Assembly: GCF_003334405.1 (NCBI RefSeq)
Contig: NZ_QOWM01000001.1
Origin: Escherichia coli
GTDB taxonomy: Bacteria > Pseudomonadota > Gammaproteobacteria > Enterobacterales > Enterobacteriaceae
DNA length: 64,000 nt
Reading direction: 5' to 3' (one strand)
The position numbers are program-made. Below are positions 24,501 through 27,500 of the stretch, piece after piece (position 1 is the first letter of the stretch; every line of letters begins with the position of its first letter).

Positions 24501-27500
24501 CATGGTGCACGCCAGGTTTGTTGCACTATCGTGGTGCATTGAAATGCATACTTAAGCATTTTTAATGAAAAATAATACGTCTAACGGGGCGGGATATTTT
24601 GCCTTGATGGTCAATTTTATGGCACGATAAGTGTAACAAACCTGTAAATATTCCCTATAAAAAGACTGTCAGTTGAGGACATTATGAAAAAACTGGTGCT
24701 ATCGCTCTCTCTGGTTCTGGCCTTCTCCAGCGCAACTGCGGCGTTTGCTGCGATTCCGCAAAACATCCGCATCGGTACCGACCCGACCTATGCGCCATTT
24801 GAATCAAAAAATTCACAAGGCGAACTGGTTGGCTTCGATATCGATCTGGCAAAGGAATTATGCAAACGCATCAATACGCAATGTACGTTTGTCGAAAATC
24901 CGCTGGATGCGTTAATCCCGTCCTTAAAAGCGAAGAAGATTGACGCCATCATGTCATCGCTTTCCATTACGGAAAAACGTCAGCAAGAAATAGCCTTCAC
25001 CGACAAACTGTACGCTGCCGATTCTCGTTTGGTGGTGGCGAAAAATTCTGACATTCAGCCGACAGTCGAGTCGCTGAAAGGCAAACGGGTAGGCGTATTG
25101 CAGGGCACCACCCAGGAGACGTTCGGTAATGAACATTGGGCACCAAAAGGCATTGAAATCGTCTCGTATCAGGGGCAGGACAACATTTATTCTGACCTGA
25201 CTGCCGGACGTATTGATGCCGCGTTCCAGGATGAGGTCGCTGCCAGCGAAGGTTTCCTCAAACAACCTGTCGGTAAAGATTACAAATTCGGTGGCCCGTC
25301 TGTTAAAGATGAAAAACTGTTTGGCGTAGGGACCGGCATGGGCCTGCGTAAAGAAGATAACGAACTGCGCGAAGCACTGAACAAAGCCTTTGCCGAAATG
25401 CGCGCTGACGGTACTTACGAGAAATTAGCGAAAAAGTACTTCGATTTTGATGTTTATGGTGGCTAATCGCCATCGGTGAAAGAAAGCCCGCTCCCTTCGG
25501 GTAACCGGAGGGAGACAAGAGGCGGTAATTCACCACACACGACAGGACAGGCAGCATGTTGTATGGGTTTTCAGGTGTTATTTTACAGGGTGCGCTCGTC
25601 ACGCTGGAGCTGGCTATCAGCTCTGTAGTGCTCGCTGTAATCATCGGTTTAATTGGCGCTGGCGGTAAGCTCTCGCAAAATCGGCTTTCGGGGCTGATTT
25701 TCGAAGGGTACACCACGCTGATTCGTGGCGTGCCGGACTTAGTGTTGATGCTGCTGATTTTCTACGGTTTGCAGATTGCGCTAAACACGGTGACGGAGGC
25801 GATGGGCGTCGGGCAGATTGATATCGATCCGATGGTCGCTGGTATTATCACTCTCGGTTTTATCTACGGTGCTTATTTTACCGAAACGTTCCGTGGTGCT
25901 TTTATGGCAGTGCCGAAAGGACATATAGAGGCGGCGACGGCGTTCGGTTTTACTCGTGGGCAAGTGTTTCGGCGGATCATGTTTCCGTCGATGATGCGTT
26001 ACGCCCTGCCAGGCATTGGCAACAACTGGCAGGTGATCCTCAAATCTACCGCACTGGTTTCGTTACTCGGCCTGGAAGATGTGGTCAAAGCCACCCAACT
26101 GGCAGGCAAAAGTACCTGGGAACCGTTCTATTTCGCCATCGTCTGTGGCGTGATTTACCTGGTTTTCACCACTGTTTCCAATGGTGTGCTGCTGTTCCTT
26201 GAGCGCCGCTACTCCGTGGGTGTGAAGAGGGCTGACCTGTGATCGAAATCTTACATGAATACTGGAAACCGCTGCTGTGGACCGACGGTTATCGCTTTAC
26301 TGGTGTGGCGATCACTCTGTGGCTGCTTATTTTGTCGGTAGTGATAGGCGGAGTCCTGGCGCTGTTTCTGGCGATTGGTCGTGTCTCCAGTAATAAATAC
26401 ATCCAGTTTCCAATCTGGTTATTTACCTATATTTTTCGCGGTACGCCGCTGTATGTTCAGTTGCTGGTGTTCTATTCCGGCATGTACACGCTTGAGATTG
26501 TTAAGGGAACCGAATTCCTTAACGCTTTCTTCCGCAGTGGCCTGAACTGTACCGTGCTGGCGCTGACGCTTAACACCTGCGCTTACACTACCGAGATTTT
26601 TGCTGGGGCAATCCGTTCGGTTCCGCATGGGGAAATTGAAGCCGCCAGAGCCTATGGCTTCTCGACTTTTAAAATGTATCGCTGCATTATTTTGCCTTCT
26701 GCGCTGCGTATTGCGTTACCGGCATACAGCAACGAAGTGATCCTGATGCTGCACTCTACTGCGTTGGCATTTACTGCCACGGTGCCGGATCTGCTGAAAA
26801 TAGCCCGCGATATTAACGCCGCCACGTATCAACCTTTTACCGCCTTCGGCATTGCCGCGGTGCTCTATTTAATCATCTCTTATGTCCTGATCAGCCTCTT
26901 TCGCAGAGCGGAAAAACGCTGGTTGCAGCATGTGAAACCTTCTTCAACGCACTGAGAATACGATGTCCGAGAATAAATTAAACGTTATCGATTTGCACAA
27001 ACGCTACGGCGAACATGAAGTGCTGAAAGGGGTATCACTGCAAGCGAATGCCGGAGATGTAATAAGCATCATCGGATCGTCGGGATCGGGGAAAAGTACC
27101 TTTCTGCGCTGCATTAACTTCCTCGAAAAACCGAGTGAAGGGTCGATCGTGGTCAATGGCCAGACGATCAATCTGGTGCGCGACAAAGACGGTCAACTCA
27201 AAGTCGCCGATAAAAATCAACTGCGCTTACTGCGCACACGCCTGACGATGGTATTCCAGCACTTCAATCTCTGGAGCCATATGACGGTGCTGGAAAACGT
27301 CATGGAAGCGCCGATTCAGGTGTTGGGCCTGAGCAAGCAGGAAGCGCGCGAGCGGGCGGTGAAGTATCTGGCAAAAGTCGGGATAGACGAACGTGCGCAG
27401 GGGAAATATCCGGTGCATCTTTCCGGCGGTCAGCAACAGCGTGTTTCTATCGCGCGGGCGCTGGCGATGGAACCGGAAGTTTTACTGTTTGATGAACCTA

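What the first reader, a model, noticed from the sequence alone, without database searches (positions are those of the whole stretch)
25491..25514. Stable intercistronic hairpin between hisJ and hisQ
A 10-bp GC-rich stem with a GNRA-like loop and no U-tract sits 25 nt after the hisJ stop. It is expected to stabilise upstream hisJ mRNA against 3' exonucleases and so raise binding-protein output relative to the membrane components.
Basis: partly seen in the sequence, partly recalled or inferred. Interest (0 to 1): 0.25.

Follow-up and report, generated by a model that had tools for sequence, protein, structure and literature searches.

The report
Conserved hairpin between hisJ and hisQ
A very stable, single-copy RNA hairpin without a terminator tail sits between hisJ and hisQ in E. 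coli; related bacteria keep a hairpin at this spot, or REP elements in Salmonella, so it is most likely an ordinary mRNA-stabilising stem-loop that favours the binding protein over the membrane parts.

Summary
Window 25491-25514 is CTCCCTTCGG-GTAA-CCGGAGGGAG: 10 pairs (one G.U), -18.6 kcal/mol, z = -4.2. It starts 25 nt after the hisJ stop and has no U-tract.

It is the core of a larger fold. An outer helix extends it to 25486-25523 (-23.3 kcal/mol), and GGUGAA/UUCACC adds a third tier.

The window is E. coli K-12. The element occurs once per genome in 5426 of 5426 E. coli. It has no REP signature, no Rfam match and no annotation.

In 80 Enterobacteriaceae genomes, all 63 short hisJ-hisQ spacers carry a strong hairpin at this place and none is followed by a T-run. 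Stem sequences differ between genera, with compensatory changes. In Salmonella and many Citrobacter an inverted REP pair sits between the same flanks instead. That spacer is where REPs were first described.

The GNRA loop is incidental: it varies within Escherichia, and 386 E. coli genomes have GUAU.

This rests on analogy and conservation; I found no direct E. coli transcript data. The published GcvB target in the hisQ leader lies 20 nt downstream, so the hairpin may also shield hisJ from GcvB-triggered decay.

This is a new member of a known kind, of low to moderate interest.

The parts
24684..25466 (+). hisJ coding sequence (periplasmic histidine-binding protein). The upstream cistron the hairpin is proposed to protect. 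Strong SD, GAGGA, 5 nt before the ATG.
25491..25514 (+). Core hairpin. 5' arm 25491-25500 (CTCCCTTCGG), loop 25501-25504 (GTAA), 3' arm 25505-25514 (CCGGAGGGAG). 10 bp including one U.G (25497/25508).
   Evidence: -18.6 kcal/mol, z = -4.2; single copy per genome
25486..25523 (+). Extended two-tier structure. The outer helix pairs G25486-C25523, C25487-G25522, C25488-G25521, C25489-G25519 and G25490-C25516 around the core hairpin, with A-rich bulges on the 3' side.
   Evidence: (-23.3 kcal/mol). The outer helix covaries: C-G to U-A and C-G to G-C between the Escherichia and Enterobacter types. The E. coli SNP C25487T keeps a U.G pair.
25475..25534 (+). Third tier: GGUGAA (25475-25480) pairs with UUCACC (25529-25534) and encloses the whole structure. 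Predicted in Escherichia, with a similar GGUG/CACC pairing in the REP-type spacers. It is not conserved in the Enterobacter group.
   Evidence: prediction only
25534..25556 (+). C/A-rich tract plus the weak hisQ Shine-Dalgarno (AGGA, CAGG) and start codon. This is the predicted pairing site for the GcvB R1 seed. GcvB repression of hisQ through R1 is published.
   Evidence: PMC9299463. Duplex scan with GcvB taken from MG1655: -22.8 kcal/mol at 25534-25556. The tract is sequence-conserved in alignments A1 and A2.
25556..26242 (+). hisQ coding sequence, the first membrane component. It is followed by hisM (26239-26955) and hisP (26963-27736).
27743..27766 (+). Terminator-like hairpin after hisP, followed by TATTTTCATG. 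It is the contrast case: a GC stem with a T-run, which the hisJ-hisQ hairpin lacks.

Best explanation
The hairpin is a transcript-level stability element of the hisJQMP mRNA.

**Proposed mechanism.**
1. RNA polymerase reads through it. There is no U-tract, and no promoter-like site in the spacer, so hisQMP depends on read-through.
2. The distal part of the mRNA is cut by RNase E or ended by Rho inside hisQMP. GcvB pairing at the hisQ leader can promote this.
3. The 3'-to-5' exonucleases (PNPase, RNase II) then digest back and stall at the base of the 10-bp GC stem and its outer helix.
4. This leaves a longer-lived, translatable hisJ segment.
5. Together with the strong hisJ SD and the weak hisQ SD, this yields much more binding protein than membrane complex.

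The function is set by the stem, not by the loop or by a particular sequence. That explains why lineages carry different stems, or a REP pair, at the same place.

**Shown here:** the structure, its stability, its uniqueness in the genome, its conservation and covariation, the absence of terminator and promoter features, and its positional equivalence to REPs.

**Inferred:** exonuclease stalling, the effect on half-life, and the link to GcvB.
For: - **Stability.** The hairpin is very stable and improbable by chance. It is at least as stable as bona fide REP stem-loops in the same window (-16 to -17 kcal/mol at 20461-20542).
- **No terminator or promoter.** There is no T-run after it and no promoter-like site in the spacer.
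- **Hairpins in all short spacers.** All 60 distinct short spacers from other Enterobacteriaceae have a hairpin 3-25 nt after the hisJ stop. The median energy is -22.75 kcal/mol, and none has 5 or more T in the next 8 nt.
- **Covariation, Klebsiella/Kluyvera group.** 7 of 11 pairs show double changes and 95.7% of cells are paired, against 32-56% when partners are slid. 0 of 500 shuffles reach the covariation score.
- **Covariation, Escherichia/Enterobacter group.** 5 of 11 pairs show double changes and 97.1% of cells are paired. On a covariance-model alignment the figure is 6 of 14 pairs, against 0-1 for slid controls.
- **Sense-strand RNA.** Excluding the loop-closing pair, non-Watson-Crick cells are 15 U.G against 2 C.A. 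That fits an RNA read from the + strand, not a DNA cruciform.
- **REP pairs at the same place.** 15 of 17 long spacers (Salmonella, Citrobacter) carry an inverted REP pair between the same flanks, AAAGCCC...AAAAGAGGC. REPs were discovered in this very spacer and tied to mRNA stability there (Higgins 1982 and Stern 1988, cited).
- **Stem preserved within E. coli.** 4400 of 5426 genomes have an identical spacer. The three variant spacers I sequenced carry either a loop change or a C-G to U.G change; neither breaks a pair.
- **Expected stoichiometry.** SBP excess over the transporter is 10- to 200-fold for type I importers.
Against: - I found no direct E. coli data: no mapped 3' end at the hairpin, no half-life comparison and no mutant.
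- Adams et al. 2021 list no 3' end in this spacer. They list none for the hisP terminator either, so their sensitivity here is poor.
- Differential translation (a strong hisJ SD, a weak and GcvB-repressed hisQ leader) could give the protein ratio without any stability effect.
- Conservation of a stem shows selection for structure, not which process reads it.
- The conserved A-rich flanks and the outer helix are not needed for a simple exonuclease block.
Confidence: 0.6

Rival explanations
1. Translation and sRNA-access module. The hairpin mainly serves as the scaffold of a larger spacer fold that sets how accessible the hisQ ribosome-binding site and the C/A-rich GcvB target are. In E. coli this includes the third-tier helix GGUGAA/UUCACC abutting the C/A tract. 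On this view it tunes hisQMP translation downward, or gates GcvB, and does not stabilise hisJ.
For: - GcvB represses hisQ through its R1 seed via the hisJ-hisQ spacer (PMC9299463).
- The predicted R1 duplex covers 25534-25556.
- The predicted fold nests the hairpin inside a helix whose 3' strand (25529-25534) touches that site.
- The outer helix and A-rich flanks are conserved beyond what an exonuclease block needs.
Against: - The third-tier helix is not conserved in the Enterobacter, Klebsiella or Kluyvera groups, whereas the hairpin is.
- In the MFE fold the SD and AUG are not paired to the hairpin region.
- Replacing the hairpin with a 100-nt REP pair in Salmonella and Citrobacter would change any precise geometry.
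Confidence: 0.15
2. A 5' protective stem for the distal mRNA. RNase E cuts in the A-rich single strand just upstream (GAAAGAAAG, 25477-25485). The hairpin then sits at the new 5' end of hisQMP and shields it from 5'-end-dependent RNase E attack, as 5' stem-loops do in ompA.
For: - The hairpin is flanked upstream by an A-rich, unpaired tract in all groups (AAAGAAAG; ATAA before the CGTG outer helix).
- Stems at 5' ends are an established stabiliser (general knowledge: Emory, Bouvet and Belasco 1992).
Against: - The stoichiometry argues for protecting hisJ, not hisQMP.
- A protective 5' stem must lie within a few nt of the 5' end, and no cleavage site is known here.
- RNase E prefers AU-rich sites with U at +2, and the upstream tract has no U.
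Confidence: 0.08
3. Transcriptional attenuator or pause site. The nascent hairpin pauses or partly terminates RNA polymerase, or modulates Rho loading on the untranslated C-rich spacer. Fewer polymerases would then enter hisQMP.
For: - A GC-rich hairpin sits in an untranslated gap.
- The C/A-rich, G-poor tract downstream (25531-25545) looks like a possible Rho loading site.
- Rho-dependent regions are reported inside hisP and argT in the same cluster.
Against: - No U-tract follows the hairpin in any of the 60 distinct short spacers, so intrinsic termination is unlikely in E. coli.
- No Rho termination region was called in the spacer or in hisQ.
- 89 nt is a short space for Rho loading.
Confidence: 0.07
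4. DNA-level or neutral element: a relic or docking site of mobile palindromes (REP/BIME turnover), or a cruciform or protein-binding site, with no role in the RNA.
For: - The same site hosts REP pairs in other genera.
- It received an ISEc13 insertion in one E. coli strain, so it is a place where mobile DNA lands.
Against: - It is single copy per genome and carries no REP signature.
- The stem is kept by compensatory changes over many genera.
- The wobble pairs are U.G on the sense strand, which would be C.A mismatches in the opposite-strand hairpin.
Confidence: 0.05

Closest known systems
REP/BIME pair in the Salmonella typhimurium hisJ-hisQ intercistronic region (Higgins et al. 1982 Nature 298:760; Stern, Prossnitz and Ames 1988 Mol Microbiol 2:141)
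   Same: Same operon, same spacer and the same flanking sequences (AAAGCCC...AAAAGAGGC). Both are stable GC-rich palindromes without a U-tract. The proposed effect on upstream mRNA stability is the same.
   Different: The E. coli element is a unique 24-38 nt sequence, present once per genome. It has no GTAGGCCKGATAAG signature and is a single hairpin, not an inverted pair of about 35-nt repeats.
malE-malF intercistronic REPs of E. coli (Newbury et al. 1987, Cell 48:297 and 51:1131; recalled from memory, not read here)
   Same: A binding-protein gene comes first in an ABC-importer operon. A stem-loop after it blocks 3' exonucleases, giving excess binding-protein mRNA.
   Different: Those are REP family members with experimental proof. 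Here the stem is not a REP and is untested.
Intrinsic (Rho-independent) terminators
   Same: A GC-rich stem of about 10 bp with a tetraloop, lying downstream of a stop codon.
   Different: There is no U-tract (ACAAGAGG follows), the downstream genes need read-through, and the scan does not call it.
SroC in the gltI-gltJ spacer (a GcvB sponge cut from an ABC-transporter operon after the binding-protein gene; Miyakoshi, Chao and Vogel 2015, recalled; SroC is mentioned in PMC9299463)
   Same: The spacer after the binding-protein gene of an amino-acid ABC operon carries structured RNA and a GcvB-complementary tract.
   Different: No terminator, no evidence of a stable released RNA, and no Rfam match. 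Here the C/A tract is the hisQ leader itself.

Membership tests
REP / BIME (repetitive extragenic palindromes) | Dispersed in many copies per genome | tested here: not met
   Exactly one place per genome in 5426 of 5426 E. coli, even with an 11-nt-word blastn search. One match in the window at up to 3 mismatches.
REP / BIME (repetitive extragenic palindromes) | Family consensus (GTAGGCCKGATAAG-type tail and the REP stem) | tested here: not met
   The signature occurs 5 times elsewhere in the window but not in the spacer. It is absent from all 63 short spacers and present as an inverted pair in 15 of 17 long spacers.
REP / BIME (repetitive extragenic palindromes) | Extragenic, transcribed, imperfect GC-rich palindrome | tested here: met
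Intrinsic terminator | GC-rich hairpin | tested here: met
Intrinsic terminator | U-tract immediately 3' of the stem | tested here: not met
   The 3' flank is ACAAGAGG. It is not called by the scan. None of the 60 distinct short spacers from relatives has 5 or more T in the 8 nt downstream.
Intercistronic mRNA-stabilising stem-loop (3'-exonuclease barrier) | Stable stem-loop just downstream of the cistron that must be over-expressed, inside a co-transcribed operon | tested here: met
   SBP excess is documented for this class of importer.
Intercistronic mRNA-stabilising stem-loop (3'-exonuclease barrier) | Structure, not sequence, under selection | tested here: met
   Compensatory changes. The loop is free to vary.
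Intercistronic mRNA-stabilising stem-loop (3'-exonuclease barrier) | RNA 3' ends accumulate at the foot of the stem | tested here: inconclusive
   The curated Term-seq list of Adams et al. 2021 has no 3' end between 2,422,637 and 2,427,825 other than the one at 2,427,825 in the argT leader. It has none at the hisP terminator either. Other data sets were not available as text.
Intercistronic mRNA-stabilising stem-loop (3'-exonuclease barrier) | Upstream segment has a longer half-life, dependent on the stem and on PNPase/RNase II | not testable with these tools
   Needs rifampicin chase or Northern analysis of wild type and stem mutants.
GNRA tetraloop motif | G-N-R-A loop closed by a helix, and conserved | tested here: not met
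   K-12 has GUAA. However, 386 E. coli genomes have GUAU, another E. coli has GCUA, E. albertii has a 6-nt loop, and other genera have 3-9 nt loops of unrelated sequence.
Any curated RNA family (Rfam 15) | Match to a covariance model | tested here: not met
   No match up to E = 10 across 22500-29000, both strands.

The most novel reading that the evidence does not exclude
The spacer may be a two-part post-transcriptional switch, not a passive stabiliser. On this reading the conserved two-tier hairpin insulates hisJ from decay, or from Rho-dependent polarity, that GcvB triggers at the adjacent hisQ leader. One sRNA could then re-set the transporter-to-binding-protein ratio without touching HisJ. 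In a stronger version, a processed fragment carrying the hairpin and the C/A tract would titrate GcvB, as SroC does from the gltI-gltJ spacer. REP pairs in Salmonella would then be a functional replacement of an older, dedicated insulator.
Probability: 0.12. Interest if true: 0.5.

Novelty: new member of a known kind. Interest (0 to 1): 0.25.

Why it matters
Getting much more binding protein than membrane complex from a single transcript is a classic problem, and this operon's Salmonella spacer is where REP elements were first described. Here, most Enterobacteriaceae solve it at this position with a lineage-specific, covarying hairpin that is not a REP. Salmonella and Citrobacter have a REP pair in exactly the same slot. 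This supports the old argument that what is selected at this site is any stable stem, not REP sequence as such. It also gives a clean natural swap series for testing that idea. The validated GcvB site next door makes the spacer a compact model for discoordinate control within an operon. For annotation, it is a conserved but unannotated RNA structure in K-12.

Tried and rejected
- **Rfam.** A permissive scan of 22500-29000 found nothing.
- **REP membership.** Rejected on copy number and signature.
- **Intrinsic terminator.** Rejected for lack of a U-tract. On the minus strand the stem has a C.A mismatch, and it was not called there either.
- **Internal promoter for hisQMP in the spacer.** None found.
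- **Published 3' ends.**
  - The Adams 2021 supplements contain no hisJ or hisQ entry, and no coordinate in 2,425,xxx-2,426,xxx.
  - Herzel 2022, the 3'-UTR valves paper, Dar and Sorek 2018 and the Rend-seq annotation paper have no supplements held as text.
- **Half-life data.** The Chen 2015 supplements have no his genes. The his entries in Moffitt 2016 are signal-peptide reporters, not native transcripts.
- **Stern 1988.** It could not be read, so what it showed is taken from a review's citation and from memory.
- **GcvB duplex.** A full-length GcvB-spacer duplexfold gave a meaningless whole-length duplex. It was replaced by a windowed scan with the R1 region.
- **Alignment register.** The MAFFT alignment of the Escherichia and Enterobacter types is out of structural register by one column, so RNAalifold recovers only part of the stem. 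I built a covariance model from the Enterobacter type. It finds the E. coli hairpin only weakly (15.5 bits, E = 0.16) but full-length and as the best hit in the window. The counts from that alignment are fitted to the structure and lean towards it.
- **Third-tier helix as a conserved feature.** Rejected, because it is confined to Escherichia and the REP-type spacers.
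Full report
**Where we are.** The window is E. 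coli K-12: the 221 bases around the finding are 100% identical to MG1655. All genes below are on the + strand of the window.

| Gene | Window coordinates |
|---|---|
| ubiX | 22846-23415 |
| argT | 23681-24463 |
| hisJ | 24684-25466 |
| hisQ | 25556-26242 |
| hisM | 26239-26955 |
| hisP | 26963-27736 |
| rpnB | 27933-28823 |

The finding lies in the 89-nt hisJ-hisQ spacer, 25467-25555.

**The observation.** The sequence at 25491-25514 is CTCCCTTCGG-GTAA-CCGGAGGGAG.
- It forms 10 consecutive pairs, one of them U.G, closed by a GUAA loop.
- Its energy is -18.6 kcal/mol, against -7.9 +/- 2.5 for dinucleotide shuffles (z = -4.2, 0 of 200 as good).
- It begins at the 25th nucleotide after the hisJ TAA and ends 41 nt before the hisQ ATG.
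- The 3' flank is ACAAGAGGCGG, so there is no U-tract.
- The consensus scan does not call it a terminator. It does call the hairpin plus T-run after hisP at 27743-27766, and it finds no promoter-like site in the spacer.
- A sliding 30-nt fold of the whole window ranks it 5th on the + strand. Fourteen + strand loci reach -18 kcal/mol or lower, so the chance of one falling in a given 89-nt spacer is about 2%.

**It is part of a larger fold.** Folding the spacer alone, or with 27 nt of hisJ and 45 nt of hisQ, gives the same nested structure.
- The core stem is as above.
- An outer helix follows: G25486-C25523, C25487-G25522, C25488-G25521, C25489-G25519 and G25490-C25516. The total for 25486-25523 is -23.3 kcal/mol.
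- A third tier pairs GGUGAA (25475-25480) with UUCACC (25529-25534).

**It is not a repeat or a known RNA.**
- Rfam gives no match up to E = 10.
- The 24-mer occurs once in the window at up to 3 mismatches.
- A sensitive blastn of the 44-nt structure finds exactly one place per genome in 5426 of 5426 complete E. coli genomes, and none on plasmids.
- RefSeq annotates nothing under it.
- The REP signature GTAGGCCKGATAAG occurs five times elsewhere in the window but not in the spacer.

**Variation within E. coli.**
- The 89-nt spacer is identical in 4400 genomes and differs at 1-4 positions in 1026.
- The 44-nt structure is identical in 4521 genomes.
- The variants I sequenced were A25504T, which changes the loop from GUAA to GUAU (two strains; 386 genomes carry this exact 44-mer), and C25487T, which turns an outer-helix C-G into U.G.
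- Other Escherichia genomes have loops GCUA or a 6-nt loop on an unchanged stem.
- So the stem is kept and the loop is free. The 'GNRA-like loop' is incidental.
- One strain (TUM14697) has an ISEc13 insertion in the loop, with a 9-bp duplication TCGGGTAAC.

**Comparison across Enterobacteriaceae.** A scan of species-representative genomes with HisQ returned 80 loci. I delimited the hisJ-hisQ spacer in each.
- Sixty-three spacers are short (57-100 nt). None has a REP signature.
- All 60 distinct short sequences carry a dominant hairpin starting 3-25 nt after the hisJ stop (median 16).
  - Pairs per hairpin: 8-16.
  - Energy: median -22.75 kcal/mol, range -28.9 to -14.6.
  - z against shuffles: median -3.45.
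  - None has 5 or more T in the 8 nt that follow.
- The stems differ by lineage:

| Lineage | Stem |
|---|---|
| Escherichia | CTCCCTTCGG |
| Some Citrobacter | CTCCCTCCTGC |
| Enterobacter, Lelliottia, Kosakonia, Leclercia | CCCCTCCCG |
| Klebsiella, Raoultella | CCATCGCGCGC |
| Kluyvera | CCCATCGTTTCG and variants |
| Pluralibacter, Pseudocitrobacter, Superficieibacter, Atlantibacter | other stems |

- Seventeen spacers are long (138-289 nt). Fifteen of these (two Salmonella subspecies and many Citrobacter) contain an inverted pair of REP signatures.
- That REP pair sits between the same flanks that bracket the hairpin in E. coli, AAAGCCC...AAAAGAGGC.
- Within C. amalonaticus and its relatives both states occur, so the replacement is evolutionarily recent.

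**Covariation.**
- *Klebsiella/Raoultella/Kluyvera/Pluralibacter/Pseudocitrobacter alignment (A3, plain MAFFT).*
  - The RNAalifold stem has 7 of 11 pairs with changes on both sides.
  - 95.7% of cells are paired, against 32-56% when partners are slid.
  - The covariation score is 0.565, against 0.25 in shuffles (0 of 500 reach it).
- *Escherichia/Citrobacter/Enterobacter-type alignment (A2).*
  - 5 of 11 recovered pairs have double changes, and 97.1% of cells are paired against 46-61% for slid partners. 0 of 500 shuffles reach the score.
  - This includes two outer-helix pairs, U-A to C-G and G-C to C-G.
- *Covariance-model alignment.*
  - MAFFT puts the two stem types one column out of register. 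I therefore built a covariance model from the Enterobacter type only and searched everything with it.
  - It finds the E. coli hairpin full-length at 25481-25526 as the best hit in the window, but weakly (15.5 bits, E = 0.16).
  - On the resulting alignment, which is fitted to the structure and leans towards it, 38 distinct rows give 95.6% paired cells. Six of 14 pairs have double changes, against 0-1 for slid partners.
- *Sense-strand wobble pairs.* Apart from the loop-closing pair, departures from Watson-Crick are 15 U.G against 2 C.A. These would be mismatches in a minus-strand or DNA hairpin. The selected object is therefore most simply the sense-strand RNA.
- The shuffle control does not correct for relatedness, so these figures show consistent structure, not a formal probability.

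**Neighbouring function.**
- The C/A-rich tract and weak SD before hisQ (CACCACACACGACAGGACAGGCAGC-ATG) are sequence-conserved.
- Miyakoshi et al. showed that GcvB represses hisQ through its R1 seed, using a hisJ-hisQ intra-operon fusion, with RIL-seq and MAPS support (PMC9299463).
- I took GcvB from MG1655, located by Rfam at 199 bits, and scanned R1 along hisJ-hisQ.
  - It gives -22.8 kcal/mol at 25534-25556.
  - That site is 20 nt past the hairpin and abuts the third-tier helix.
- hisJ has a strong SD (GAGGA, 5-nt spacing) and hisQ a weak one.
- Proteomics reports a 10- to 200-fold excess of binding protein over transporter for type I importers (PMC12094219).

**Mechanism.** Transcription runs through the hairpin. 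Distal decay then starts by RNase E cleavage or Rho termination in hisQMP, and GcvB can promote it. That decay is stopped by the stem, leaving a stable hisJ message.

The evidence for this is:
- positional identity with the REP pair of Salmonella, where REPs were first described (Higgins 1982) and tied to mRNA stability (Stern 1988, as cited in PMC3184786);
- selection on the stem but not on the loop or the sequence;
- the absence of terminator and promoter features;
- stability equal to or above that of the REP stems in the window.

None of this measures RNA stability in E. coli. The only 3'-end list I could search has no call anywhere in hisJQMP, including at the hisP terminator, so it is uninformative. 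I put this account at about 0.6.

The rivals are:
- a scaffold that sets hisQ translation or GcvB access (0.15);
- a 5' protective stem for hisQMP after upstream cleavage (0.08);
- a pause or attenuator (0.07);
- a DNA-level or neutral relic (0.05).

The conserved outer helix and the invariant A-G-A in the 3' bulge are not explained by a plain exonuclease block. They remain open.

**Comparison with known systems.**
- It works like the REP stem-loops of hisJ-hisQ (Salmonella) and malE-malF, but it fails the two defining REP tests, copy number and consensus.
- It looks like an intrinsic terminator stem but lacks the U-tract.
- It shares its genomic setting with SroC (the gltI-gltJ spacer), but there is no evidence of a released RNA.
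- It is best filed as a new, unannotated member of the general class of intercistronic stabilising stem-loops.

**Verdict.** The feature is real and conserved. It is a new member of a known kind, with interest of about 0.25. The modest extra value lies in the natural hairpin-to-REP swap at the historic REP locus and in the adjacency to a validated GcvB site.

Noticed in passing
L082 (E. coli TUM14697) 911-2559; corresponds to window 25496-25504: An IS4-family ISEc13 element is inserted in the hairpin loop, with a 9-bp target duplication TCGGGTAAC. It splits hisJ from hisQMP. It is the only one of 5426 genomes in which the spacer is interrupted. The same strain has no rpnB annotated between hisP and yfcH.
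   Followed up: partly
window 25504 and 25487: Two natural E. coli polymorphisms. A25504T changes the loop from GUAA to GUAU (386 genomes carry this exact 44-mer). C25487T turns an outer-helix C-G into U.G. About 520 further genomes differ from K-12 at one position of the 44-nt structure and were not characterised.
   Followed up: partly
window ~23647 (NC_000913.3 2,427,825, minus strand), argT 5' leader: Adams et al. 2021 list a very abundant RNA 3' end 34 nt upstream of the argT start, inside the C/A-rich tract (CAAACACACAACACAATACACA) that is the known GcvB target region of argT. It is the only curated 3' end in the whole argT-hisJQMP cluster.
   Followed up: no
window 24861-24885 (inside hisJ): The GcvB R1 scan gives a slightly better predicted duplex inside the hisJ coding region (-23.5 kcal/mol, TGCAAACGCATCAATACGCAATGTA) than at the validated hisQ leader site. 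It could be chance or a second contact.
   Followed up: no
window 25458-25474: A small predicted hairpin, GGUGGC-UAAUC-GCCAUC, holds the hisJ stop codon in its loop. Terminating ribosomes would open it. The hisJ-side arm is constrained by the Gly-Gly codons.
   Followed up: no
L061 (Citrobacter freundii M-21 record) spacer 1212-1500: This 289-nt hisJ-hisQ spacer has an Atlantibacter-like hairpin plus an insertion of roughly 190 nt bounded by inverted repeats (TATACCC...GTGCAGG / CCTGCAC...GGGTATA). It is MITE-like and has no REP signature. HisJ identity (92.7%) and the flanks suggest the record is not a typical C. freundii.
   Followed up: no
window 7627-7663, 20482-20523, 58305-58318: Canonical REP signatures: two inverted pairs (BIME-like) and one single copy. 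They served as an internal positive control for the REP test.
   Followed up: partly
window 2253-2288, 18467-18496, 36771-36800, 5105-5134: The four local hairpins stronger than the hisJ-hisQ one (-21.6 to -22.1 kcal/mol on the + strand, 30-nt windows). All four also fold strongly on the minus strand (-18.2 to -21.3), so they may be bidirectional terminators. Their gene context was not examined.
   Followed up: no
L011 (Citrobacter amalonaticus ku-bf3) spacer 1363-1500: This 138-nt spacer has a single REP-like stem (ATGCCGGATAAGCGTAGCGCCATCCGGCAT) without the GTAGG tail. It looks like an intermediate or decayed state between the REP-pair and hairpin forms.
   Followed up: no
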